DNA from: an uncultured Acidimicrobiales bacterium
GTDB lineage: Bacteria; Actinomycetota; Acidimicrobiia; Acidimicrobiales; RAAP-2
Reading direction: 5' to 3'
DNA length: 29,088 nt
NCBI GenBank assembly: GCA_963923735.1
Contig: CAWUMT010000001.1
Span: 1-29,088 of the forward strand
In this document: piece after piece, positions 7,041 to 27,998 of the stretch
How the letters are laid out: each line of letters starts with the position of its first letter
Numbering within the stretch: the first letter of the stretch is position 1
Made by a program: the position numbers and the translations under genes
Notes under the pieces: model-generated
Told to the model about the DNA's origin: nothing
Seen by the model: only the letters and a program-made list of their open reading frames with translations
Database searches by the model: none

Positions 7041-7113
7041 GGGGGTGTAGCTCAGTTGGCAGAGCGCTACGTTCGCAATGTAGAGGCCGTGGGTTCAAAT
7101 CCCATCACCTCCA
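7041..7113 (+). tRNA. tRNA-Ala, anticodon CGC
   Basis: Acceptor stem GGGGGTG/CACCTCC with G3:U70, D-arm AGCTCAGTTGGCAGAGC, anticodon arm CTACG-TTCGCAA-TGTAG (CGC at 7074-7076), T-loop GGTTCAAATCC. CCA is not encoded. TACACT -10 at 7022-7027. Confidence 0.98.
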
Positions 7114-8812: not shown

Positions 8813-10045
8813 TCAGGTGACCGAACCGGTGAGCTTGAGCTCGATGATCTTGTCCATGTCGAAGCCCAGCTCGCCGAGGATCTCGTCGGTGTGCTCGGCG
8901 AACTGCGGGGCCCGGGTGAGCTCCGGCGGCTCGTTGTCGAACTGGACCGGGTTGGCCACGAGCTTCTGCTCGTTGCCGTCCACGTCCACGACGGGGCGCA
9001 TGAAGCCGTTGGCCACGACCTGGCGGTCGTGGGCCACCTCGAGGGGGCTCTGGACCGGGGCCCACTGACCCTCGAGGGTGGCGAACTTCTCACGCCAGTT
9101 GTCGAAGGTGTCCTTGGCGATCTCCTCCGCGATGATCGCCGCGGCCGCCTGCGTGGACTCAGGGGTCATGAGCTTCTCGACGGTGGCGAAGCGCTCGTCC
9201 TCGATGAGGTCCTCACGACCGAGGTGCTTGCAGGTGTCGGCCCAGTAGCGACCGGCCTGGAGCATGGTGAAGTTGATCCAGCGACCGTCGGAGGTCTTGA
9301 ACACACCGACCAACGGGTTGAAGGTCGCGGTCTGGTCAGCGAACGATGCCGGGGGCACGTCCTGGCCGAGCACCAGTGCGTTGCCGATCGACAGCGCCAT
9401 TGCCCATGCACCCACCGAGAGCAGCGAGATGTCGAGCTCGGCGGCGTGGCCGTGCTTCTCGCGGCCGTAGAGGGCGGCGGCGATGCCACCGGCGATCGTC
9501 ATGCCACCCATCGAGTCGCCGTAGGCGCCACCGGGCTGAGAGATCAGCTTGGGGCTGTCTGAGGGGGTTGCGCCCCAGGCGGAACCCGAACGGCACCAGA
9601 AGCCGGACATGTCGTAGCCACCGTTGAGGCGCTCAGGGCCCTGGTTTCCGAAGGCTGAGCCACGGGCGTAGATGATGTTGGGGTTGATCGCACGGATGTG
9701 CTCGACGTCGATCTGGAGCTTCTGACGAGCGTCAGGGAGGAAGTTCACGAGGAACACGTCTGCGGTCTTGGCGATCTCGTAGAGGACCTCGCGGGCCTCA
9801 GGCTGGTCGAGGGCCAGGCCGATCGAGCGCTTGCCACGGTTCGGGTGCTCCATGAGGGGCTGGAAGTTGCCCGCAGCTGCACCACCGGTGCCGAGCTTGA
9901 GCCCACGCTGGGCGTCACCGGCCACTGCGTGCTCGACCTTGATCACGTCGGCACCCCAGTCGGCCAGCACGGCGCCGGCGCTCGGGGTGAAGGTGAACTG
10001 GGCGACTTCGAGGACCTTGACCCCCGCCATTGGCTTGAATGCCAT
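8813..10045 (-). CDS. Class III CoA-transferase (CaiB/BaiF family)
   Basis: LADWGADVIKVEH, NRGKRSI, ADVFLVNF, catalytic Asp in GAYGDSMGG and APQFAEHT; start MAFKPM at 10045 with AGGAG upstream. Confidence 0.93.
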   Translation of the reverse strand: MAFKPMAGVKVLEVAQFTFTPSAGAVLADWGADVIKVEHAVAGDAQRGLKLGTGGAAAGNFQPLMEHPNRGKRSIGLALDQPEAREVLYEIAKTADVFLVNFLPDARQKLQIDVEHIRAINPNIIYARGSAFGNQGPERLNGGYDMSGFWCRSGSAWGATPSDSPKLISQPGGAYGDSMGGMTIAGGIAAALYGREKHGHAAELDISLLSVGAWAMALSIGNALVLGQDVPPASFADQTATFNPLVGVFKTSDGRWINFTMLQAGRYWADTCKHLGREDLIEDERFATVEKLMTPESTQAAAAIIAEEIAKDTFDNWREKFATLEGQWAPVQSPLEVAHDRQVVANGFMRPVVDVDGNEQKLVANPVQFDNEPPELTRAPQFAEHTDEILGELGFDMDKIIELKLTGSVT

Positions 10046-10260
10046 CTGCCTCTGCCTTCTTCTCCTGCCCGCCCCCTGCGGACGAGCACGAGGCTGAAAC
10101 CTACCGGGCCTCAGCACGGGTGTCTATCTCCGGGTCCTCAAGGCACCGCGAGCTGTGGGGAAGTGGGCCTCGAACTGTGGGAAGTGCAGTGGACATCTTG
10201 GCGGCATCTGTGGATCTCGCGGAGATGTGGTGGGAAACGCGAGGATTTCGCCATTCTCGG

Positions 10261-10290
10261 TTGACGGACCTGGCGCGCGCACCGCACACT
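10261..10290 (+). promoter_or_regulatory. Putative housekeeping-sigma promoter facing a gene-free region
   Basis: TTGACG (10261-10266), 18-bp spacer, CACACT (10285-10290). Confidence 0.55.
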
Positions 10291-10297
10291 GTCGCCC

Positions 10298-10600
10298 AGA
10301 CCGAGTTCGTCGAACTCGCTCGACGCCAGTCGGACTCCTCCGGGAGGCCGGCTGAGCGGCTCCGACAGGGGGCTCCCGCACGGGAGCTGGAGTCGGGGCG
10401 AGGGGGTGCCCGCAAGGGGGCTCTCGATCGAGCCGAGGCGGAGGAGGTGGGTGGACCACCACCTGGTGCGTTCCTTCGGGGACCACCGGATGCAACGGTC
10501 CGGGGTTGTCCGACACGGCCCCGGAACGGATTCGGTCCCACCCATGGCGATGCCCCGAGAGGCGGGGAGGCTTCGGCCCCCGGTCACTCGGGGCTTCGTC
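10298..10600 (+). ncRNA. Candidate stand-alone structured non-coding RNA, family unassigned
   Basis: Series of GC-rich stems capped by cUCCGg, GCAA and two cUUCGg tetraloops on the + strand; terminal hairpin followed by TTCGTCGCGTT; promoter upstream; no credible ORF. Confidence 0.6.
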
Positions 10601-10626
10601 GCGTTCTGGGGACTGTCGAGTGACGC

Positions 10627-11502
10627 TCAGTCGTGGTGGATGTGCCCGCAGCCGCCTTCGGCCTCGAGCTCCACGGTGGCGTGGTCGATCCCAAATCGCT
10701 CCTCGAGCATCGAGTGCAGCGTGATCAGGAGCGGCCTCGTGGATTCGACGGAGGCGTCTCCGGACACCACGAGGTGCGCCGAGAGGGCCTTGGAGGTGGA
10801 CGACAGCGTCCAGACATGGAGGTCGTGGACGTCGAGGATCTCCTCGACGCCTCGGAGTGCCGCCTCGACCTCGCTCAGGTCGATGTCCGTCGGGACGCCC
10901 TCGATCAGGACGTGGATTGAGGCCCAGGTGATCCGCAGAGCCTCGACGACGATCAGTGCAGCCACGATCAGCGAGGCAATCGGGTCCACGCGCATCGCGA
11001 GCGGACCTGAAGCCACGAGGGCGATGAGGCCGGCGAGCGCCACCACCGCAGCGCTGAGCGTGTCGCCCACCGCGTGGAGCAGCGCACTGCGCACCCCGAG
11101 GTCGTGTCCGTGCTCGTGCAGCAGGCGGACGACGAGCAGGTTGAGCACGACGGAGAACAGCGCGGCGACCAGGACGACGCCACCTTCGATGGGACGAGGA
11201 TGGAGCAGGCGTTCGACGGCCATCCATGCGATCCCCACGGTGACGACCACGAGGACGATGCCATTGGCCAAGGCAGCAAGGGTCGAGGCGCGGCCCCATC
11301 CATAGGTGCGCCGCGCGCTCGGCGGTCGACTGGCAAGCACCGAGGCCGTCAGGGCGAAGACGAGCGCCATCGCATCGGTCAGGTTGTGGCCGGCATCGGC
11401 GACGAGGCCGGTGGAGTGTGCGGCTCGGCCGGCGATCACCAGGCCGATCGAGAGCAGGAGGTTGATCCCGAGTGCGGCACTGAGGCGTGCCGATCGGCTC
11501 AT
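10627..11502 (-). CDS. Cation diffusion facilitator (CzcD/ZitB-like)
   Basis: ADAGHNLTD and LLHAVGD metal sites, TYGWGR, DVHDLHVW and a His-rich tail. Confidence 0.93.
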   Translation of the reverse strand: MSRSARLSAALGINLLLSIGLVIAGRAAHSTGLVADAGHNLTDAMALVFALTASVLASRPPSARRTYGWGRASTLAALANGIVLVVVTVGIAWMAVERLLHPRPIEGGVVLVAALFSVVLNLLVVRLLHEHGHDLGVRSALLHAVGDTLSAAVVALAGLIALVASGPLAMRVDPIASLIVAALIVVEALRITWASIHVLIEGVPTDIDLSEVEAALRGVEEILDVHDLHVWTLSSTSKALSAHLVVSGDASVESTRPLLITLHSMLEERFGIDHATVELEAEGGCGHIHHD

Positions 11503-12365
11503 CGTGCGGTGAACAGCCCGGGCGCCCGTCGCCCCTGGGCCACCAGCTCGATGAGTTCGCTGCGCACCACGTCTAAGTCCCCTGGATGGGTGACGCCAAT
11601 GCAGCGTGACTCGGTCGGAATCACCTCAACCCGGCGCAGGCCATTGGGCGCATCGAGCGAACCGGCCACCACGCGACCGACCACCTCGGGGAGGAGCACC
11701 TCGGCGTCTTCGGAGGCGTCGGTGGCCTGGGCCATGGCCTCGGCGAAGACGGCCCACATCTCAGGGGCGAAGCCCCAGAGGTTCATCGACACGATGGATT
11801 CAGGGTCGAGTTGTGCGGGCTCCATGCCGTCTGCAGACGCGAAGGTCCCATCCGAGGCGGTGACCGAACGCCGCTCGGCGATGCCGCTGAGCAGACCGTC
11901 GGTGACCTCGCAGACCCCTCGAGTCACCGGCTCATCCCCGGCGATGGCATTGCGGAGGCGAAAGCCGACCAGAAGGTTCCTTGGCGAGGCGGTGAGGGCC
12001 GCTGCAGCGAGGGAGAGCGCCTCGACGCCGTAGAGATCATCCGCGTTCACCACGGCGAAGCCCACGGAGGGATCCACCACGTCTCGTGCGGCCAGCACGG
12101 CGTGGACGGTGCCGAGCGGACGTTCCTGAATGGCGAATCCGACGGAGAGATCCTTGGGCCAGAGCTCCTCGACGTGCGCTCGGATCTGAGGCCCTGAGTC
12201 GGGGTTGAGCACCAAGACGATCTGGCCGAAGCCGGCCTGAGCTGCGTCGGAGGCCAGCAGGTCGATTACGGCTTCGTGCTCAGGACCGATAGGGGCGAGC
12301 GGCTTGACTCCGCCGAAACGCCGCGCTCGACCGGCGGCGAGGACGACGAGGGCGGGCCGGCTCAT
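11499..12365 (-). CDS. Nucleotidyltransferase (NTP_transferase / sugar-phosphate type)
   Basis: VVLAAGRARRFGGVK, LGTVHAVLAA, VVNADDLYG and SMNLWGF; ATG overlaps the fabH stop. Confidence 0.85.
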   Translation of the reverse strand: MSRPALVVLAAGRARRFGGVKPLAPIGPEHEAVIDLLASDAAQAGFGQIVLVLNPDSGPQIRAHVEELWPKDLSVGFAIQERPLGTVHAVLAARDVVDPSVGFAVVNADDLYGVEALSLAAAALTASPRNLLVGFRLRNAIAGDEPVTRGVCEVTDGLLSGIAERRSVTASDGTFASADGMEPAQLDPESIVSMNLWGFAPEMWAVFAEAMAQATDASEDAEVLLPEVVGRVVAGSLDAPNGLRRVEVIPTESRCIGVTHPGDLDVVRSELIELVAQGRRAPGLFTAR

Positions 12366-13294
12366 GCGGGCCAGCGGAGCACGCAACTGGCCCAGGTCAT
12401 CCCTGCGCCGAAGCCGGTCAGCAGGAGGAGGTCTCCTGGCTGGACCCGACCATGCTCGAGGGCATCGACGAGTGCGAGGGGGATCGAGGCTGACGAGGTG
12501 TTGGCGTACTTGTCGATCACCATTGCCGCACGCTCCTCAGGGATTCCGAGTCGCTGGCAGACGGCCTGGACGATGCGGATGTTGGCCTGATGGGGGACCA
12601 GCAAAGAGATCTCGTCCGCGCTCACCCCGGCCTCGGAGAGCACCTTGGTGGAGGACTCGACCACGGCTCGCACGGCGTTGCGGAAGACTTCCTTGCCGTC
12701 CATGCGGATGTAGTCGCCGTAGTCGGCATAGAGCAGGTGGGCGAGGCTGCCGTCGCAGCCTGCATCCCAGGAGAGCACGTCGCCGCCCTCTTGGACCGCT
12801 TCGACCAGCAGCGCGCCTGCACCGTCGCCAAAGAGCACTGCGGTATTGCGATCGGTGTAGTCCGTGATGGTGCTCAGGCGCTCGGCCCCGATGACAAGAA
12901 CCCTCTTGGCCCCGGCCATGATCAGACCCTGCGCGGTGACCAGCCCGTACGCGAAACCCGAACAGGCGGCGTTGACGTCCATGGCGCCGCCGTTGATGCC
13001 GAGTTCCACCTGGACGGTGGCGGCGATGCCGGGGCAGGGTCGATCGGGGGTGATGGTGGCGGCGACGACGAAGTCGACGTCGGCCCCGGTGACCCCGGCG
13101 CGCTCGAAGGCCTTGCGGCCTGCCTCGACGGCGAGTCCCGCGGTGGATTCTGCGCCGACACGGCGCTCGCGGATCCCAGTGCGCTCAACGATCCACTCAT
13201 CCGAGGTCTCGACGATCTTCTCGAGATCAGCGTTGGTGAGGACCTTGTCGGGAACCGAGGAGCCCCATCCGATGATCTTGAATCCCGTGTTCAT
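12362..13294 (-). CDS. fabH: Beta-ketoacyl-ACP synthase III
   Basis: Catalytic triad NAACSGF, VPHQAN and YANTSSAS; WIVERTGI, LFGDGAGA and GFGAGMTW. Confidence 0.93.
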   Translation of the reverse strand: MNTGFKIIGWGSSVPDKVLTNADLEKIVETSDEWIVERTGIRERRVGAESTAGLAVEAGRKAFERAGVTGADVDFVVAATITPDRPCPGIAATVQVELGINGGAMDVNAACSGFAYGLVTAQGLIMAGAKRVLVIGAERLSTITDYTDRNTAVLFGDGAGALLVEAVQEGGDVLSWDAGCDGSLAHLLYADYGDYIRMDGKEVFRNAVRAVVESSTKVLSEAGVSADEISLLVPHQANIRIVQAVCQRLGIPEERAAMVIDKYANTSSASIPLALVDALEHGRVQPGDLLLLTGFGAGMTWASCVLRWPA

Positions 13295-13358
13295 CGTGCC
13301 GTCACTTTCACGCACTGAAGCATAGGAGGTGGGCCTTGAAATTCTTGGTTCTCCACGC

Positions 13359-13766
13359 TCACCCTTTGGGGTCGAGCACAGAGACGGTGCACTTGGCGTC
13401 GGCAATCTGACGACCATCCTGATCGGAGAGGTCGATGTGCCACACCTGGATCGAACGACCGACCCGGATAGGGGTGGCAGTGGCCACCAGTGTGCCTTCG
13501 GTCATTGAGCGCAGGTGCGAGGCTGAGATCTCGACTCCGACGACGTTCTTGCCCTCAGCATTGAGCGCCGCACCGAAGGACGCCGCGGACTCTGCGAGCA
13601 GGGCGGACACCCCGCCATGGAGGAGTCCGAAGGGCTGGTGCACGGTGGATCCCACGGGGAGCTCTAGGACCACCTTGTCCTTGGCGGCCTCACGGATGGA
13701 GATGTCGAGGTGTGCGTGGATGCCCGAGGCCTCAACGTGGGCCTTGAACTCGCTGTGGCTCGCCAT
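13359..13766 (-). CDS. Hotdog-fold acyl-CoA thioesterase (PaaI/MenI-like)
   Basis: QPFGLLHGGVSALLAESAAS, GVEISASHLRS and GRSIQVW. Confidence 0.88.
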   Translation of the reverse strand: MASHSEFKAHVEASGIHAHLDISIREAAKDKVVLELPVGSTVHQPFGLLHGGVSALLAESAASFGAALNAEGKNVVGVEISASHLRSMTEGTLVATATPIRVGRSIQVWHIDLSDQDGRQIADAKCTVSVLDPKG

Positions 13767-13886
13767 GTGATGAGCCTAGGTCCGTCACCAACTCGTCACT
13801 GACTCATCACCCAGAGTTTGAGGGGTTTCAGCGCTTCGAAGGCCTCCGGTAGGATTCTGCGAGAACGCCGGAGTCGGGAGCGAGAC

Positions 13887-15149
13887 ATGAGCATCGAGAT
13901 GGTGAACCTCTCCTCCATCGTGCGTCGCCCGCTCGTGGACGACGCCGGTGACCGCATCGGGCGCATCGAGGACCTCGTGGTCCGCCTTGGCGACAGCCCC
14001 CACCCCCCGGTGGTGGGCCTCGTGGTGAGGATCGGCGGCCGGGACCTCTTCGTGCCGGCGCGAAAGATCCCCTCGTTCACTGGATCTCCGGTGCGCTTCC
14101 AAGGCCGCCGCGTGGACCTGCGTCGTTTCGAACGACGCGAGGGTGAGCTCCTGTTGGCCAAGGACCTCTTGGCTCGTCACCTCATCAACCTCGTCGGCGG
14201 TCGGCTCATTCGCGCCAACGACATCGTGCTGGCCCAACTCGCCGATCGCTGCGAGGTGATCGGGATCGACCCAGGCCGCCGTCCCATGCTCCGCTCGCTG
14301 CTTCCCTGGGACAAGGGTGATGGCGTCTCGAGGAGCGGGATCATCGACTTTGAGTCGATTGAGCCGTTTGTCAGTCACGTGCCCACGGCCAAGTTGCGGA
14401 TTCCCTACCGCAAGTTGGCCAAGTTGCATCCCGCCCAGATCGCCGACCTTGTCGAAGCAGCCAGCCATGAAGAGGGCGAGGAGATCATCGACTCGCTCTC
14501 GGGTGACGCAGAGCTCTCAGCCGACGTCTTCGAGGAGCTCGACCTCGAGCACCAGGTCGAGTTCATCGACGCGAAGAGCGACCTCGAGATCGCCCGACTC
14601 CTCGACCGCATGGCTCCTGACGATGCCGCCGACCTCATCGCTGAGATCGATCAGGATCGCCGCCTCGACATCTTGGGCCTCTTGCCCGCTGACTCGCAGG
14701 CCAAGGTCCGCAACCTGCTGTCCTATAACGCAGACACCGCGGGCGGGATCATGTCGCCCGACTACGTGGCGGTGGCCATGGCCGCCACGGTGCGCGACGC
14801 CCTTGAGGCAGTGCGGACCTCCAAGGCCCCCGCTGAGGCCCTCAACGTCGTCTACGTCCTCGAGCCGGACGGGACGCTGACAGGCTCCGCTCCACTGGCC
14901 ACCCTGGTGCGCTCAGCCGAGCATCTGTCGATCCAGGACGTGGCCCGCTCGGAACCCACGCTGGTGCGGCCGAGCTGGGACCTGCACACCACGGCGCGTC
15001 AGATGTCGGACTTCAACCTCACGGTTGCTCCCGTAGTGGACAAGGCCACCGGCCAGATTCTCGGCGTGGTGACCATCGATGACCTGATCGAGCTCCTCCT
15101 GCCCCAAGGGTGGCGCAAGGAATTCGGCATGGCGGCGGTGGAGGAATAG
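13887..15149 (+). CDS. Stand-alone MgtE cytoplasmic-domain protein (PRC-barrels, MgtE N-domain, CBS pair; no TM domain)
   Basis: GRIEDLVV PRC-like start, LAKLHPAQIADLVE, MAPDDAADL, TAGGIMSPDY and GVVTIDDL; no transmembrane segment. Confidence 0.85.
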   Translation: MSIEMVNLSSIVRRPLVDDAGDRIGRIEDLVVRLGDSPHPPVVGLVVRIGGRDLFVPARKIPSFTGSPVRFQGRRVDLRRFERREGELLLAKDLLARHLINLVGGRLIRANDIVLAQLADRCEVIGIDPGRRPMLRSLLPWDKGDGVSRSGIIDFESIEPFVSHVPTAKLRIPYRKLAKLHPAQIADLVEAASHEEGEEIIDSLSGDAELSADVFEELDLEHQVEFIDAKSDLEIARLLDRMAPDDAADLIAEIDQDRRLDILGLLPADSQAKVRNLLSYNADTAGGIMSPDYVAVAMAATVRDALEAVRTSKAPAEALNVVYVLEPDGTLTGSAPLATLVRSAEHLSIQDVARSEPTLVRPSWDLHTTARQMSDFNLTVAPVVDKATGQILGVVTIDDLIELLLPQGWRKEFGMAAVEE

Positions 15150-15351
15150 TCCTATGGCCGCGCACCTGTTGGACGAGTTGAGGGGGATCCGCTGAAACCC
15201 CCAAGTACCACCCGCCGAGGGGACTCCCTCGGCGCGGCGTCCTACGCGATGAGCCTGGAGGGCCAGCTTCGTAGCTGACCTCTCGAGGAGTGGCTTCTTC
15301 GTGTGGCGCCGATCCGCACACGTAGACGTCACGCCCGAGAGGAGGTGAGCA
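15150..15351 (+). promoter_or_regulatory. Structured leader, candidate translational switch
   Basis: Stems GGACG/CGTCC, GGGGG/CCCCC and CGCCGAGGG/CCCTCGGCG; CCTCTCG (15279-15285) can pair with CGAGAGG (15336-15342), which overlaps the SD. Confidence 0.45.
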
Positions 15352-16926
15352 ATGCACGCAGCCGACGATCAGTCGATCACCGGTGCCTTCGGCACCATTC
15401 AGCATGGAGACACAACCAGCCGTACCGGCGTGCGCGCCCGTCTGCTCACCCTGCTCGCCATCTTGGGTCCCGGGATCATCGTCATGGTGGGGGACAACGA
15501 CGCCGGCGGGGTGTCGACCTATGCCCAGGCCGGCCAGAACTTCGGGCTCTCCCTCCTGTGGGTGCTGCCCCTGCTGATTCCGGTGCTCGTGGTGAACCAG
15601 GAGATGGTGGTCCGTCTGGGTTCAGTGACCGGTGTCGGGCACGCTCGCCTCATCCGCGAGCGCTACGGCAAGTTCTGGGGCACCGTATCGGTCTCGAACC
15701 TGCTGGTCCTGAACTTCGCCACCATTGCCACCGAGTTCATTGGTGTGAACCTCGCTCTGTCGTATTTCCACGTCAGTGAGTACGTCTCAGTGCCCCTCGC
15801 TGGCCTCGGCCTGATCGTCATGACGACCTCGGGGAGCTTCCGACGCTGGGAGCGATTCATGTTCGTCTTCATCTTCGCCAACTTCTTGGTCATCCCTCTG
15901 GCGATCATGCGACACCCTTCGCTCGGTGACGTCGCCCACCACATGGTGGTTCCCGGAATTCAGGGAGGAGTGACTTCCGATGCGGTCCTGCTGATCATCG
16001 CCATCGTGGGAACGACGGTGGCCCCCTGGCAGCTGTTCTTCCAGCAGTCCAACATCGTGGACAAGAAGATCACGCCGAGGTGGATCAACTACGAGCGGGC
16101 CGACACCATGATCGGCTCGGTCATCACCGTCTTCGCTGCCACGCTCATCATCTGCGTCGTCGCAGCTTCTTTCGCGGGAACGAAGCTCTCGGGCCACTAC
16201 ACCGATGCCTACGGGGTGGCCCAGGGCCTCCACCACCTCGTCGGGCCGTGGGCCGGAGCCTTCTTTGCCATCATCCTGCTCAACGCATCGCTCATCGGTG
16301 CGGCCTCGGTCACGTTGGCCACCACCTACGCGATGGCAGACGTGAACCGTTCGACCCTGTCGCTCGATCGTGGCTGGCGCGAAGCGAAGGGCTTCTATGG
16401 CGCCTTCATCGCCCTCGTGGTCCTGGCCGCTGGACTGGTCCTGCTCCCCGGGGCGCCGCTCGGGCTCATCACCACCACGGTTCAAGCCCTTGCTGGACTC
16501 CTCCTGCCGATGTCGACGACGTTCCTGCTCCTGCTCTGCAACGACCCCGAGGTGCTCGGGCCATGGGTGAACCGACCCTGGCTCAACGTTCTGGCCACCG
16601 TCATCGTGAGCGTGCTCATCGTGCTGTCGTTCATCTTGATGGCCACCACGGCATTCCCTTCGATGAACGTGGTGGTGCTCTCGAGCGTCATGGCTGCACT
16701 GCTCGGCGCGGTCCTGCTCATCGCCGGGGGAATCTGGCTCCTGCGCCGGAGCCCTGCGTCAGCCAAGGTGGCCTTCGAAGAGCGAGCCTCATGGCGCATG
16801 CCGCGGGCCAACCTGCTGGACCGCCCCATCCTTGACGGTCCCCGACGCCTCGCCCTCATCGGGCTCGCCGGGTACCTCGTCCTCTCGGTGGCGATGCTGC
16901 TGGTCAAGGCCATTCAGCTCGGATGA
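15352..16926 (+). CDS. Nramp-related divalent metal (probably Mg2+) transporter
   Basis: LGPGIIVMVGDNDAGG (no DPGN), QEMVVRLG, GTTVAPWQLFFQQS and about 12 TM segments; SD GGAGG. Confidence 0.88.
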   Translation: MHAADDQSITGAFGTIQHGDTTSRTGVRARLLTLLAILGPGIIVMVGDNDAGGVSTYAQAGQNFGLSLLWVLPLLIPVLVVNQEMVVRLGSVTGVGHARLIRERYGKFWGTVSVSNLLVLNFATIATEFIGVNLALSYFHVSEYVSVPLAGLGLIVMTTSGSFRRWERFMFVFIFANFLVIPLAIMRHPSLGDVAHHMVVPGIQGGVTSDAVLLIIAIVGTTVAPWQLFFQQSNIVDKKITPRWINYERADTMIGSVITVFAATLIICVVAASFAGTKLSGHYTDAYGVAQGLHHLVGPWAGAFFAIILLNASLIGAASVTLATTYAMADVNRSTLSLDRGWREAKGFYGAFIALVVLAAGLVLLPGAPLGLITTTVQALAGLLLPMSTTFLLLLCNDPEVLGPWVNRPWLNVLATVIVSVLIVLSFILMATTAFPSMNVVVLSSVMAALLGAVLLIAGGIWLLRRSPASAKVAFEERASWRMPRANLLDRPILDGPRRLALIGLAGYLVLSVAMLLVKAIQLG

Positions 16927-22062: not shown

Positions 22063-22121
22063 GAATGCTCCTTGGTCGCCGGGGATCTCCGAGGCTACGG
22101 CCCACCGGCCAGAAATCCAAG

Positions 22122-22148
22122 ATGAGAGGGCTCTCATCTGAGTCTCAT
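22122..22148 (+). promoter_or_regulatory. Putative OmpR-family operator
   Basis: TCTCAT-N5-TCTCAT (22132-22137 and 22143-22148); the first copy is also half of the palindrome GATGAGAG-GG-CTCTCATC; CACTAT -10 at 22170-22175. Confidence 0.5.
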
Positions 22149-22195
22149 AGAGCCTTCAGAGCCCGAAACCACTATGGATCCTGCAAGGAGGAATG

Positions 22196-22642
22196 ATGCG
22201 AGGCGCATTCAACTGGATCATTGGGCTCATCGCCGCAGCGGTGCTGACGGGCGGAGCGGTGTCACTGGCCGCCACGGCCATGCCCACGTCAGAGGCCACG
22301 GGGTCGACCGGGTCGCTGCAGGCCCAACTCAACGCTCTGAACGCCCAGCGGGCAGGACTTGACGCGCAACTCGCGCAACGATCTGGGTCCACGCCCACCA
22401 CCTCAGGTTCCTCCGGTCGGGCCAGTACCCCGACGACCGTCAGCGGAACGTCGCGGACCTCAACCCAGGCTCCGAGCACACACACCACCCAGACCACGTC
22501 GGCTCCTAACACGGTGCCCTCGACCGTCCCCCCGACAACGGTCCCGGTGACGACTCCAAGCACCACGCCGACGACGCCGCCGTCATGGGGCGACGACGAC
22601 CACGGATCCTCCGACGAGCACGAGGGTGGCCACGATGACTAG
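22196..22642 (+). CDS. Exported low-complexity protein 1 (signal/TM, coiled coil, Thr/Ser/Pro stalk, Asp/His tail)
   Basis: SD AAGGAGG; hydrophobic N-terminus; LQAQLNALNAQRAGLDAQLAQ; tail WGDDDHGSSDEHEGGHDD. Confidence 0.75.
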   Translation: MRGAFNWIIGLIAAAVLTGGAVSLAATAMPTSEATGSTGSLQAQLNALNAQRAGLDAQLAQRSGSTPTTSGSSGRASTPTTVSGTSRTSTQAPSTHTTQTTSAPNTVPSTVPPTTVPVTTPSTTPTTPPSWGDDDHGSSDEHEGGHDD

Positions 22643-26749: not shown

Positions 26750-26878
26750 GCGACCTTGAGGGGAAGCCGGTCAAAGTCCGGCACTGGTCCGCAACCGTAG
26801 GCAGCACGAGTCATCGTGCAGCGAGTCGGGATACCTCAGGGACGCCCAAACCACCTGCAGCGTCGAGACACGCGGGCG
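26750..26878 (+). ncRNA. Cobalamin riboswitch (compact form)
   Basis: GGGAA-GCCGG-TCAAAGT-CCGGC-ACTGGTCCGCAACCGTA ... GAGTCGGGATACC; closing stem CCTTGAG/CTCAGGG; downstream GCGT-CGAGAC-ACGC hairpin; TAGGTT -10 at 26726-26731. Confidence 0.9.
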
Positions 26879-26939: not shown

Positions 26940-27998
26940 ATGAAGACCCGCCGCCGAAGTGCCCTCGTGGCCGGCGCCCTCGTCCTCAGCCTCGGACTGA
27001 ACACCCTCACCACCAGCGCCGCCTCGGCTGCCGGACTGCCCGGTCGAGCACAGAGGGCCGGTGACTACCTGGCGAGCCAGCTCATCCACAAGACCATCAA
27101 CGCAACCGACACCGCGTACGTGGCCTACTCAGGAACGACGCCGAATCTGTCGCTCACGGCCGAGGCGATCCTGGCCTTCCACGCGTTGGGTCGAACCACT
27201 GAGGAGAACCTCCTGCTCGGTTATCTCGAAGCACGTGTCGAGAAGTACGTGCACGTCACGAGCGGGTGTGGGTCCGCAACGGCCTACGACGATGCGGGCC
27301 ACCTGGGCCTCGTGCTCTATCTGGCAAACCTGACCGGGGCGCAGAGCTCCTTCGACCTCTCAGCGCTCCAGGCGCGGCTCCTCGCCACGCAGCGGCCCGG
27401 TGGCCTGTTCGGACTCAACAGCCCGATGGCCTGTTACGACGGGGTCCAACGCACCGCGTTCGCCATCCTCGGGCTGATCAAGAACGGGATGTTGCCGACT
27501 GATCCAGTGATCGTCTCGGCAACGAATTGGATCGAGCATCAGCAGTGCCCCAATGGAGCGTTCCCTGCCTTCCGGGGAACGACGCAACCATGCGCGTCGA
27601 GCGGATGGGGAGCGAACCGCTTCGACACGAACTCGACTGCCGACGCCCTGCTCGGCCTCAAGGCCAGCGGCGCCGATCCGACGACGGGTTCCTCGGCGCG
27701 CGCCCTGACCTGGCTCGCCAGCGCCCAGAAGGCGGACGGGACCTGGGGGTTCTACAAGAATGATCAGGGCGACTCGGACTCGACCTCGGCAGTGATCACG
27801 GCGCTCGTGATGGCGGGCCAACTTGAGGCGGGGACGATCGCTCAGTGGACCAAGTCCGGGGTGACGCCCTATCAAGCCCTTGCCACCTTCCAGTCGAAGC
27901 TCTCCTACGGCATCGTCTGGCAGGCCGGCTCGCTTCCGGACAACCTCTCGACGATCGAGGCCATCCTCGGCCTCAGCGGGTACTCCCTGCAGCTCTGA
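26940..27998 (+). CDS. Secreted prenyltransferase/squalene-oxidase-repeat (alpha6-alpha6 barrel) protein
   Basis: Signal peptide MKTRRRSALVAG...AASAA; QW-like repeats QRPGGLFG, QQCPNGAF and QKADGTWGF; no DxDD cyclase motif seen. Confidence 0.75.
   Translation: MKTRRRSALVAGALVLSLGLNTLTTSAASAAGLPGRAQRAGDYLASQLIHKTINATDTAYVAYSGTTPNLSLTAEAILAFHALGRTTEENLLLGYLEARVEKYVHVTSGCGSATAYDDAGHLGLVLYLANLTGAQSSFDLSALQARLLATQRPGGLFGLNSPMACYDGVQRTAFAILGLIKNGMLPTDPVIVSATNWIEHQQCPNGAFPAFRGTTQPCASSGWGANRFDTNSTADALLGLKASGADPTTGSSARALTWLASAQKADGTWGFYKNDQGDSDSTSAVITALVMAGQLEAGTIAQWTKSGVTPYQALATFQSKLSYGIVWQAGSLPDNLSTIEAILGLSGYSLQL

What the first reader, a model, noticed from the sequence alone, without database searches (positions are those of the whole stretch)
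10261..10607. Orphan ~300-nt highly structured RNA with its own promoter and terminator
The 580-bp gap between the divergent CoA-transferase and the convergent CDF gene has no credible ORF. It holds a TTGACG-18-CACACT promoter and then consecutive helices: palindrome CGAGTTCG-T-CGAACTCG (10302-10318); CAGTCGG/CCGGCTG enclosing CTCC-TCCG-GGAG (10327-10354); GCTCCGAC/GTCGGGGC enclosing GCTCCC-GCAC-GGGAGC (10359-10399); a GCAA-capped stem (10402-10425); CTGGTG/CACCGG enclosing a UUCG stem (10463-10489); CCGGGG/CCCCGG (10500-10524); and GCCCCGAG/CTCGGGGC enclosing GGC-TTCG-GCC (10552-10594), followed by a T-containing tail. Long-range pairings are possible (CCGAGT 10301 with ACTCGG 10586; CGCCA 10324 with TGGCG 10545; GGTGGG 10446 with CCCACC 10537). 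Three cUNCGg loops and one GNRA loop all read on the + strand, and many G-U pairs point to RNA-level selection. With no downstream + strand gene, it would be a trans-acting RNA rather than a riboswitch. It lacks the hallmarks of rnpB, tmRNA and SRP. Ms1-like or raiA-motif identity is possible: short segments such as TCGACGCCAGTCG and GCGGGG...CCGGTCA remind me of raiA, but this is unverified recall.
Basis: partly seen in the sequence, partly recalled or inferred. Interest (0 to 1): 0.82.

Follow-up and report, generated by a model that had tools for sequence, protein, structure and literature searches.

The report
New structured RNA family in Acidimicrobiia
The gap holds a real, independently transcribed ~310-nt non-coding RNA with an evolutionarily conserved fold. 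It founds a previously undescribed RNA family found across the bacterial class Acidimicrobiia, it has a unique promoter array, and its function is still unknown.

Summary
Window 10297-10607 (+) encodes a structured RNA: the + strand folds with z -5.1, the - strand with z -1.5.

- **Conservation:** homologues occur in all 8 same-genus genomes and 27 of 36 same-family genomes. A model of the 3' domain finds one copy per genome in 29 further families of the order and in 13 genomes of other Acidimicrobiia orders.
- **Structure:** covariation supports the fold. 92.8-96.2% of cells pair, against 35-49% in slid controls, and 29-30 pairs carry compensatory changes.
- **Not coding:** no reading frame is conserved.
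- **Promoter:** the -35 and -10 elements are conserved. Upstream lies a helically phased array of 4-6 TGGGGA/TGTGGG boxes plus a GGATTTC box. This array occurs nowhere else in the genomes tested.
- **Expression:** two metatranscriptomes hold a contig inside the RNA and nothing from the flanking genes.
- **Not a known family:** there is no Rfam hit. True raiA RNAs sit at other loci in the same genomes, Ms1 synteny is absent, and RNase P, tmRNA and SRP RNAs are found elsewhere.
- **Architecture:** the fold is multi-branched, with a variable string of GNRA hairpins followed by an invariant 3' domain.

The most likely role is a stable, protein-binding trans-acting RNA. An RNA-polymerase-binding stand-in for the undetected 6S/Ms1 is the leading specific guess, and it is unproven.

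The parts
10154..10237 (+). Upstream array of direct-repeat boxes: TGTGGGGAA 10154-10162, TGTGGGAAG 10176-10184, TGTGGATCT 10209-10217, and a GTGGTGGGAAA-type box at about 10227-10237. It corresponds to the phased TGGGGA array of other genera and is a presumed binding site for an oligomerising transcription factor.
   Evidence: Of 60 non-redundant promoters in the family, 44 carry 4-5 TGGGGA boxes in 170 nt, against 0.06 expected. Spacings peak at 11 and 21-22 nt, and the boxes sit at fixed distances from the -35. The array occurs only at this gene in G018, G023 and G036, and it is the top box cluster in the window's own genome.
10243..10249 (+). GGATTTC box, lying 11 nt upstream of the -35. 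In other genera it reads CTGGATTTCGCGAAT and contains the palindrome TTCGCGAA. It sits where an UP element or a proximal activator site would.
   Evidence: It is conserved in the genus alignment and in 55 of 60 family promoters. GGATTTC-N10-12-TTGAC occurs once per genome, only at this gene, and never in the reversed-pattern control.
10261..10290 (+). Core promoter: -35 TTGACG (10261-10266), an 18-nt spacer, and -10 (G)CACACT (10285-10290). The inferred transcription start is about 10296-10298.
   Evidence: TTGAC and GCACACT are invariant or nearly so across nine genus sequences. Family-wide the promoter reads TTGACC-N17-GCGCAAYCT. Sequence conservation of the RNA begins directly downstream.
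10297..10607 (+). The mature RNA, about 310 nt. The 5' end is inferred from the promoter. The 3' end is inferred from the closing helix and from the drop in conservation.
   Evidence: It folds with z -5.1 on the + strand only. The covariance model finds full-length homologues at 215-286 bits. The consensus has 70 pairs, 29 of them with compensatory changes. Metatranscriptome contigs cover 10382-10580 only.
10299..10321 (+). P1, the 5' hairpin (helix 1).
   Evidence: Six of its 8 pairs show changes on both sides, and 93% of cells are paired.
10323..10326 (+). 5' strand of the long-range closing helix (ACGC). It pairs with GCGU at 10601-10604.
   Evidence: This is helix 2 (91% paired, 2 pairs with double changes). 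The equivalent CGC/GCG helix appears in the 350-nt clade.
10330..10420 (+). Variable 5' domain of stable tetraloop hairpins: 10330-10351 (UCCG loop), 10359-10398 enclosing 10372-10387, and 10409-10420 (GCAA loop). In other genera it is expanded to 3-5 or more GNRA-capped modules separated by purine-rich linkers.
   Evidence: These are helices 3-6, each with 3-5 covarying pairs. The expansion of modules is visible.
10450..10542 (+). Enclosing helix of the 3' domain (GGUGG 10450-10454 with CCACC 10538-10542). It contains the UUCG hairpin (about 10463-10489) and the CCGAC-loop hairpin.
   Evidence: This is helix 7 (96% paired). The equivalent helix, columns 204-213 with 301-310, shows several double changes.
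10500..10524 (+). Signature hairpin with the invariant loop and closing pairs UGU-CCGAC-ACG (loop at 10510-10514).
   Evidence: GTCCGACAC is invariant in 52 of 52 diverse sequences, while the base of the stem covaries freely (GC, CG, UG and UA types).
10546..10604 (+). Terminal hairpin domain plus tail. The stem is CCCCGAG (10553-10559) with CUCGGGG (10587-10593), capped by a GGC-UUCG-GCC tip. The tail UUCGUCGCGU closes back onto 10546-10550 and 10323-10326.
   Evidence: Both strands of the stem are invariant in 52 of 52 sequences, and the internal pair 188:215 switches from AU to GC. This is the part that survives in other orders and in the one hit outside the class.

Best explanation
Window 10297-10607 (+) is the gene for a stable, highly structured, trans-acting non-coding RNA. 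It is the founding member of an undescribed family present as a single-copy gene across class Acidimicrobiia.

Shown:
- The promoter is conserved and specific to this gene. Upstream of it lies a helically phased array of direct-repeat boxes.
- The fold is multi-branched and supported by covariation. It starts with a 5' hairpin and a short 5'/3' closing helix. Next comes a lineage-variable string of tetraloop (mostly GNRA) hairpins. The 3' domain is invariant and holds a CCGAC-loop hairpin and a terminal hairpin whose stem sequence never varies.
- No conserved ORF is present, and no downstream gene lies in cis.
- Metatranscriptomes contain the RNA but not its flanking genes.

Inferred:
- The invariant loop and the sequence-invariant helix are recognition surfaces for a conserved cellular partner, most probably a protein, so the RNA works as a ribonucleoprotein.
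- The sequestered ends and tetraloops make the RNA long-lived.
- The upstream array makes its synthesis strongly regulated by a dedicated DNA-binding factor.

The most specific candidate mechanism is speculative, at roughly 0.25 on its own. In it, the RNA binds and buffers RNA polymerase, filling the role that 6S RNA plays in most bacteria and Ms1 plays in Actinomycetes. Neither of those RNAs is detectable in these genomes.
For: Strand-specific stability: z -5.1 on the + strand against -1.5 on the - strand.

Conservation:
- BLAST finds it in 8 of 8 same-genus and 27 of 36 same-family genomes.
- Model R2 finds one hit per genome in 43 other genomes of the order, spread over 29 families, and in 13 genomes of other orders.

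Covariation:
- Genus alignment: 92.8% paired against 40-49% when slid, 29 pairs with double changes, 0 of 500 shuffles as good.
- Structure-blind alignment of 52 sequences: 96.2% against 35-49%.
- 350-nt clade: 77 pairs, 30 of them compensatory.

Promoter and array.

Not coding: 60 of 73 indels are not multiples of 3, substitutions show no codon periodicity, and every frame is broken in some homologue. Pfam finds nothing for the ORF.

Expression: contigs of about 200 nt lie inside the RNA in two RNA libraries, with zero flank coverage, while the DNA runs do cover the flanks.

Invariant single-stranded and helical sequence in 52 of 52 sequences.

The niche is open:
- 6S (RF00013) was found in 0 of 41 relatives, although the control genomes do give hits.
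- No Ms1 hit in Rfam.
- HAD-IB genes lie far from the RNA, and their intergenic gaps are too short to hold a ~300-nt Ms1.
- RNase P, tmRNA and SRP RNAs are all accounted for elsewhere.
Against: - No partner has been identified, and nothing here tests binding.
- The consensus fold is multi-branched. It is not the rod with a central bubble that lets 6S mimic an open promoter and that is also modelled for Ms1 (PMC9130861).
- Failure of the Rfam 6S model does not prove that 6S is absent.
- The expression evidence consists of contigs from a single study. Contigs show no strand, no ends and no level, and an RNA library can contain DNA.
- The 5' and 3' ends are inferred, not mapped.
- The variable number of hairpin modules could equally suit a sponge for some other protein or a purely architectural role.
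Confidence: 0.45

Rival explanations
1. It is a base-pairing regulatory sRNA. The invariant single-stranded CCGAC loop, with its flanking bases UGU and ACG, acts as the seed that pairs with target mRNAs. The rest of the molecule provides stability.
For: The loop with its closing pairs is invariant in 52 of 52 sequences, while the stem below it covaries. In more distant homologues GUCGUCCGAC is kept even where the stem changes. The RNA has its own regulated promoter.
Against: - At 300-450 nt with about 10 conserved helices, it is far larger and more constrained than typical seed-type sRNAs.
- The most widely conserved part is the terminal hairpin, not the loop.
- Hfq is absent.
- A seed of 5-7 nt is too short for any target prediction, and none was attempted beyond an intramolecular check.
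Confidence: 0.15
2. It is a large structured RNA with a biochemical function of its own: a ribozyme, a ligand-binding RNA or an RNA-only assembly. This would place it with raiA, OLE, ROOL and GOLLD. The GNRA tetraloops would then serve tertiary or intermolecular contacts.
For: It is a single-copy gene with many covarying helices and several GNRA loops, plus blocks of invariant nucleotides. It coexists with raiA in the same genomes as a separate conserved RNA.
Against: - The number of GNRA hairpins varies from about 1 to more than 5 between genera. That is unusual for a precisely folded catalytic core.
- Invariant nucleotides are concentrated in two hairpins and are not spread over junctions.
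- No pseudoknot or tetraloop receptor could be identified.
Confidence: 0.12
3. It is a very divergent orthologue, by descent, of Ms1 or of another known actinobacterial RNA. Sequence, synteny and shape would have drifted beyond recognition.
For: - Ms1 is about 300 nt, has extra 5' and 3' hairpins, and its sequence is not alignable even between Mycobacterium and Streptomyces (PMC9130861).
- The size, the 5' and 3' hairpins and the single-copy status are similar here.
- No other Ms1 or 6S candidate was found.
Against: - No Rfam hit to Ms1 or to any family at E up to 10.
- The HAD-IB hydrolase synteny that defines predicted Ms1 loci is absent in all five genomes checked.
- The conserved motifs are absent from the Ms1 paper's supplementary sequences.
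- The consensus fold is not a rod with a central bubble.
- R2 finds nothing in about 140 genomes of other Actinomycetota classes apart from one marginal hit.
Confidence: 0.08
4. It is a cis-acting element of the neighbouring genes: a long 3' UTR, a bidirectional terminator, or an antisense regulator of the convergent CDF / NTP-transferase / FabH operon.
For: The RNA's 3' hairpin ends about 30 nt from the CDF stop codon (10627). Within the family, the convergent NTP-transferase and FabH neighbours are conserved in about 80 of 111 loci.
Against: - The element has its own conserved promoter and upstream array.
- The synteny is lost outside the family, kept in only 2 of about 20 loci, while the RNA persists.
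- A terminator would not need about 10 covarying helices or invariant loops.
- No + strand gene lies downstream.
Confidence: 0.04
5. The region encodes a protein, from ORF 10039-10623 (+) or from one of the - strand ORFs.
For: Four of the six frames are open across the region in the window.
Against: - 60 of 73 indels relative to genus homologues are not multiples of three.
- Mismatch rates are equal at the three codon positions (0.39, 0.41, 0.39).
- Every frame carries stops in several homologues.
- No Pfam family matches.
- Substitutions are compensatory at the RNA level.
- Open frames are expected in DNA of about 72% G+C.
Confidence: 0.01

Closest known systems
Ms1 RNA (MTS2823 / scr3559), the RNA-polymerase-core-binding sRNA of Actinomycetes
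   Same: - Actinomycetota host.
- Size of about 300 nt.
- Single-copy independent gene.
- Extra short hairpins at the 5' and 3' ends.
- Occurs in genomes without a recognisable 6S RNA.
   Different: - No sequence or Rfam match.
- No HAD-IB hydrolase or oxidoreductase synteny.
- The consensus fold is multi-branched and has no central bubble.
- It is restricted to class Acidimicrobiia, where Ms1 has not been reported.
- Binding to RNA polymerase is untested.
6S RNA (RF00013)
   Same: A stable, abundant-type regulatory RNA encoded by a single-copy gene with its own promoter. A short helix joins its ends.
   Different: - It is about 310-450 nt long, against about 185 nt for 6S.
- It is not a rod with a central bubble.
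- The covariance model gives no match here or anywhere in 41 relatives.
raiA motif RNA (RF03072)
   Same: - A large, independently transcribed, single-copy, highly structured orphan RNA.
- Found in Actinomycetota, including Acidimicrobiia (PMC10861870).
- Contains blocks of invariant nucleotides.
   Different: - No match to the raiA model.
- True raiA RNAs (114-157 bits) lie at other loci in the same genomes.
- The window's genus has this RNA but no raiA.
- The architecture differs: a variable string of hairpins followed by two invariant 3' hairpins, instead of P1-P6 with two pseudoknots.
CsrB/RsmZ-type protein-sponge RNAs
   Same: A lineage-variable number of near-identical hairpin modules separated by purine-rich (GGA-containing) linkers.
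   Different: - The loops are GNRA, not GGA.
- CsrA is not encoded in the window's genus or in G036, both of which carry the RNA.
- Hfq is absent.

Membership tests
raiA motif RNA (RF03072) | Match to the raiA covariance model at or above the gathering score (101.3 bits). The model encodes P1-P6, two pseudoknots and about 51 conserved nucleotides. | tested here: not met
   raiA gives no hit on 10000-10700 even at E up to 10 with permissive filters, and none in the gathering-score scan.
raiA motif RNA (RF03072) | It is the genome's single raiA-class gene. | tested here: not met
   Bona fide raiA hits (114-157 bits) occur at other loci in 15 of the 16 other genera of the family, all of which also carry this RNA. 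In G023, raiA is at 3.40 Mb and this RNA at 1.22 Mb.
Ms1 RNA | Conserved synteny with a HAD-IB hydrolase ('inhibition of morphological differentiation') gene and an oxidoreductase, Fic or glycosidase gene (PMC9130861). | tested here: not met
   The neighbours are a CoA-transferase, a CDF transporter, an NTP-transferase and FabH, with gatAB in other genera. TIGR01490 genes lie 0.4-3 Mb away in five genomes.
Ms1 RNA | Sequence and structure match to known Ms1 RNAs. | tested here: not met
   No Rfam family matches at E up to 10. The core motifs are absent from the Ms1 paper's supplementary sequences. Known Ms1 RNAs are themselves barely alignable, so this is weak evidence against shared descent.
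Ms1 RNA | A 6S-like long hairpin with a central bubble, plus short 5' and 3' hairpins. | tested here: inconclusive
   The 5' and 3' hairpins are present. The covariation-supported core, however, is a multi-branched set of about 8 hairpins with no long rod or bubble.
Ms1 RNA | Binds RNA polymerase core and accumulates in stationary phase. | not testable with these tools
   This needs RIP or a pull-down, plus growth-phase Northern blots.
6S RNA (RF00013) | Match to the 6S covariance model, and a rod of about 185 nt with a central bubble. | tested here: not met
   No hit here or in 41 relatives. The length is about 310-450 nt and the fold is multi-branched.
6S RNA (RF00013) | Binds the sigma-A holoenzyme and templates pRNA synthesis. 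| not testable with these tools
   This needs biochemistry or the detection of pRNA in small-RNA sequencing.
RNase P RNA, tmRNA and SRP RNA | It is the genome's copy of one of these universal RNAs. | tested here: not met
   All three are found above their cut-offs at other loci in 5 of 5 relatives, and none matches here.
Riboswitch or cis-regulatory leader | A regulated gene lies downstream on the same strand. | tested here: not met
   The next gene (CDF, 10627-11502) is on the - strand and converges on the RNA. The neighbours change outside the family.
CsrB/Rsm-type sponge RNA | Repeated GGA motifs in hairpin loops, and a CsrA partner encoded in the genome. | tested here: not met
   The loops are GCAA, GAAA or GAGA. 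CsrA is absent from G003, G005 and G036, all of which carry the RNA.

The most novel reading that the evidence does not exclude
This is a third, structurally distinct class of RNA-polymerase-regulating RNA, beside 6S and Ms1. It would serve class Acidimicrobiia, and its synthesis would be switched by a dedicated factor that oligomerises on the phased TGGGGA array upstream of its promoter. That would explain how a whole actinobacterial class manages without 6S or Ms1.
Probability: 0.22. Interest if true: 0.82.

Novelty: categorically new. Interest (0 to 1): 0.68.

Why it matters
Acidimicrobiia are abundant in soils, peat, fresh water, the sea and activated sludge, yet they are almost unstudied genetically.

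- **A new RNA class.** A 300-450-nt RNA that is single-copy, conserved across the class, supported by covariation and absent from Rfam 15 joins the short list of large bacterial RNAs of unknown function, alongside raiA, OLE, ROOL and GOLLD. Such RNAs have repeatedly led to new biochemistry.
- **A testable candidate for an open question.** The RNA sits in genomes where neither 6S nor Ms1 can be found. It is therefore a concrete candidate answer to how these actinobacteria regulate RNA polymerase in stationary phase.
- **An unidentified regulator.** The promoter carries a helically phased, genome-unique array of 4-6 direct repeats. Such an array suggests a dedicated DNA-binding regulator, which could be fished out with the array as bait.

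'Categorically new' is meant at the level of RNA family. Membership was tested against every plausible known family and failed. The mechanism is still unknown.

Tried and rejected
- **Rfam.** Nothing in the region at gathering score. At E up to 10 only chance-level hits appear: nhaA-II at 19.9 bits against a gathering score of 70, mir-671, MIMT1 and PhotoRC-I.
- **raiA identity.** Rejected.
- **Ms1 identity.** Synteny is absent. The intergenic gaps next to the HAD-IB gene in G003 are only about 118 and 30 nt, and Rfam finds nothing there. The core motifs are not in the Ms1 supplement.
- **6S.** Not found in 41 relatives.
- **RNase P, tmRNA and SRP.** All found elsewhere.
- **Literature search with the invariant motifs.** Only unrelated primer-like matches.
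- **Pattern matches outside Acidimicrobiia** (Terrabacter, Streptomyces, Rhodococcus, Gaiellaceae, Archangium, Planctomycetales, Chloroflexota). Model R1 does not confirm any of them, so they are chance matches.
- **DnaA-box reading of the upstream repeats.** In the window's genus the boxes (TGTGGA/TGTGGG) do resemble the TGTGGA-type boxes that cluster near dnaA. Most genera, however, use TGGGGA. The dnaA flanks show no such unidirectional phased array, and dnaA lies 0.35-0.7 Mb away. This is unresolved, and I do not adopt it.
- **CsrA or Hfq sponge.** The partners are absent.
- **Intramolecular partner for the CCGAC loop.** GUCGGAC at 10329-10335 is complementary in the window but is not conserved in the genus. 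I treat it as chance.
- **Simple promoter and terminator scan.** Found nothing. The -10 element (CANNNT) fails its T-first rule, and there is no U tract.
- **Neighbour clustering.** It was noisy because GC-rich DNA yields long spurious frames. Only the gatAB and FabH/thiolase signals were annotated.
- **Earlier notes of this scan.** None for this sequence.
Full report
**1. The observation**

The 580-bp gap lies between a CoA-transferase gene (8813-10117, - strand; Pfam CoA_transf_3) and a CDF metal exporter gene (10627-11502, - strand; Cation_efflux plus ZT_dimer).

Folded as RNA, 10290-10610 gives -196.6 kcal/mol on the + strand, with z -5.1 and none of 100 shuffles as good. The - strand gives -156.4 kcal/mol with z -1.5. 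The signal is therefore real and strand-specific.

Rfam 15 has no match in the region at gathering score. At E up to 10 with permissive filters it returns only chance-level hits.

**2. Conservation and organism**

- BLAST against related genomes finds the element in all 8 genomes of the same genus and in 27 of 36 genomes of the family, once per genome.
- A scan of named genomes with three invariant blocks returns almost only Acidimicrobiales or 'Acidimicrobiaceae' MAGs from soil, peat and water.
- The few matches in other phyla are not recognised by the covariance model, so they are chance matches.
- A more sensitive model of the 3' 124 nt (R2, built from 52 diverse sequences) finds one full-length hit per genome in 43 further genomes of the order, spread over 29 families. 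One of these, G178, is an unpublished genome. Leaving it out gives 42, and no other claim rests on it.
- R2 also finds hits in 13 genomes of other orders of the class.
- Among about 140 genomes of other Actinomycetota classes it finds only one, G459 at 44.7 bits. That terminal hairpin looks genuine.

This is therefore an RNA found throughout Acidimicrobiia. Non-detection in a genome is not proof of absence.

**3. It is an RNA gene, not a protein gene**

The genus alignment shows a conserved GGATTTC box, a -35 TTGAC, an 18-nt spacer and a -10 GCACACT. Conservation of the RNA begins just downstream and drops after about 10607.

Structural evidence:
- RNAalifold gives 70 pairs, 29 of them with compensatory double changes.
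- With controls, 92.8% of cells pair against 40-49% when partners are slid. There are 29 pairs with double changes against 5-14 in the controls, and 0 of 500 shuffles reach the observed values.
- A structure-blind MAFFT alignment of the 3' domain from 52 sequences gives 96.2% against 35-49%, again 0 of 500.
- The larger '350-nt' clade gives 77 pairs, 30 of them compensatory.

Evidence against coding:
- 60 of 73 indels are not multiples of three.
- Mismatch rates are equal at the three codon positions.
- Every frame is interrupted in several homologues.
- ORF 10039-10623 has no Pfam match.

**4. Architecture**

- A 5' hairpin, P1 (10299-10321).
- A short closing helix, ACGC 10323-10326 with GCGU 10601-10604, stacked on the extended terminal hairpin.
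- A 5' domain of tetraloop hairpins (10330-10420). In other genera it expands to 3-5 or more near-identical GNRA-capped modules separated by purine-rich linkers. The RNA then reaches 256-520 nt, with a median of 350.
- A 3' domain enclosed by GGUGG/CCACC (10450-10542). It contains a hairpin whose loop and closing pairs, UGU-CCGAC-ACG, are invariant in 52 of 52 sequences while the base of its stem covaries.
- A terminal hairpin (10546-10600). Its stem, CCCCGAG/CUCGGGG, is invariant on both strands, and a conserved CGCG tail follows.

In other orders the terminal hairpin and tail are the best preserved part.

There is no U-tract terminator.

**5. The promoter is remarkable**

Family-wide it reads GAAC-GTCTGGATTTCGCGAAT, 4-6 nt, TTGACC, about 17 nt, GCGCAAYCT. 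Upstream lie 4-6 direct repeats, cTGGGGA(c/t/a) in most genera and TGTGGG or TGTGGA in the window's genus.

- Of 60 non-redundant promoters, 44 have 4-5 boxes within 170 nt, where 0.06 are expected.
- All boxes share one orientation.
- Spacings peak at 11 and 21-22 nt.
- The boxes sit at fixed distances of 32, 53, 74-75, 85-86, 96 and 107 nt from the -35.
- GGATTTC-N11-TTGAC occurs once per genome, only at this gene.
- The phased triple-box pattern occurs only at this gene in G018, G023 and G036, and the window's promoter is the top box cluster in its own genome.
- One homologue from another family keeps the whole design.

Helical phasing of unidirectional repeats suggests an oligomerising DNA-binding regulator, but this is inference. 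In the window's genus the boxes resemble DnaA boxes. Most genera do not show this resemblance, and dnaA is 0.35-0.7 Mb away. I leave that question open.

**6. Expression**

Two aquatic metatranscriptome runs from one study each contain a single contig of about 200 nt. It is 95-99% identical to the window, lies wholly inside the RNA (10382-10580), and nothing from either flanking gene is present. Two DNA runs do cover the flanks. This fits a transcript more abundant than its neighbours. Contigs, however, show no strand, ends or level, and RNA libraries can hold DNA.

**7. What it is not**

- **raiA.** No model match. True raiA RNAs (114-157 bits) sit at other loci in 15 of the 16 other genera of the family, and those genera also carry this RNA.
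- **Ms1.**
  - Published predictions cover only orders of class Actinomycetes and rest on synteny with a HAD-IB hydrolase.
  - Here the neighbours are unrelated, and HAD-IB genes lie 0.4-3 Mb away.
  - The intergenic gaps next to the HAD-IB gene are too short for an Ms1.
- **6S.** No hit in 41 relatives, although the control genomes do give hits. The fold is not a rod with a bubble.
- **RNase P, tmRNA and SRP.** All present elsewhere.
- **A cis element.** No + strand gene lies downstream. The family-level synteny (gatAB upstream; CDF, NTP-transferase and FabH convergent downstream) is lost in other families while the RNA persists.
- **A CsrA or Hfq sponge.** The partners are absent.

**8. Mechanism**

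Shown: an independent, regulated, structured, conserved, single-copy RNA.

Inferred: an invariant loop, together with a helix whose sequence and not merely its pairing is invariant, indicates sequence-specific recognition by a conserved partner. That partner is most simply a protein. Paired ends and tetraloops suggest stability.

I therefore favour a stable trans-acting ribonucleoprotein RNA, at about 0.45. Within that reading, the most specific idea (about 0.22-0.25) is an RNA-polymerase-binding RNA that replaces the undetected 6S/Ms1. The argument for it is circumstantial: an open niche, a similar size, terminal hairpins and an elaborate promoter. The non-rod fold counts against it.

Rivals are a seed-type sRNA (0.15), a ribozyme or RNA-only machine (0.12), a divergent Ms1 by descent (0.08), a cis element (0.04) and a coding region (0.01).

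**9. Novelty**

This is a new RNA family. Its biochemical kind is still to be determined.

Noticed in passing
window 26761-26835 (+): A partial cobalamin riboswitch aptamer (RF00174) scores 34.0 bits against a gathering score of 31.5 and covers model positions 46-168. It lies about 100 nt upstream of the + strand ORF 26940-27998.
   Followed up: no
window 7041-7113 (+): A tRNA gene (RF00005, 69.6 bits) lies between a 263-aa ORF of unknown family and a cytochrome P450 gene (7517-8719).
   Followed up: no
relatives G001-G008 and G000: The window's genus has no raiA motif RNA hit in any of 9 genomes, whereas 15 of the 16 other genera of the same family have one above the cut-off. This looks like a genus-level loss of raiA. 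Assemblies are 74-96% complete.
   Followed up: partly
G204:C1:21633-21744 (-) and 22117-22240 (+); G258:C12:88750-88870 and 90168-90268 (L167): Two genomes of another Acidimicrobiia order carry two copies of the 3' domain close together. In G204 they are divergent and about 400 nt apart. In G258 they are in tandem, about 1.4 kb apart. Everywhere else the RNA is single-copy.
   Followed up: partly
G459:C66:8133-8243 (L176:1501-1611): This is the only hit outside class Acidimicrobiia among about 140 Actinomycetota genomes (44.7 bits). Its terminal hairpin and CGCGUCCG tail closely resemble the window's form, so it may be a real homologue, a transfer or a binning contaminant.
   Followed up: partly
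window 10627-16926: Metal-ion transport genes cluster downstream of the RNA: a ZitB-like CDF exporter (10627-11502, -), an MgtE-like protein (13818-15149, +) and an NRAMP/MntH-like transporter (15352-16926, +). An NTP-transferase gene and fabH lie between them.
   Followed up: no
L146:2200-6024 (-) and about 60 other family loci: In most genera of the family the gene upstream of the RNA, on the same strand, is gatA-gatB (Glu-tRNA-Gln amidotransferase). The window's genus has a divergent CoA-transferase there instead.
   Followed up: partly
G023:C5:1683569-1684060 (-): Three consecutive CsrA-domain matches lie in one 252-aa open frame. This could be a tandem-repeat CsrA-like protein or three fused or adjacent small genes, which is unusual for an actinobacterium.
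   Followed up: no
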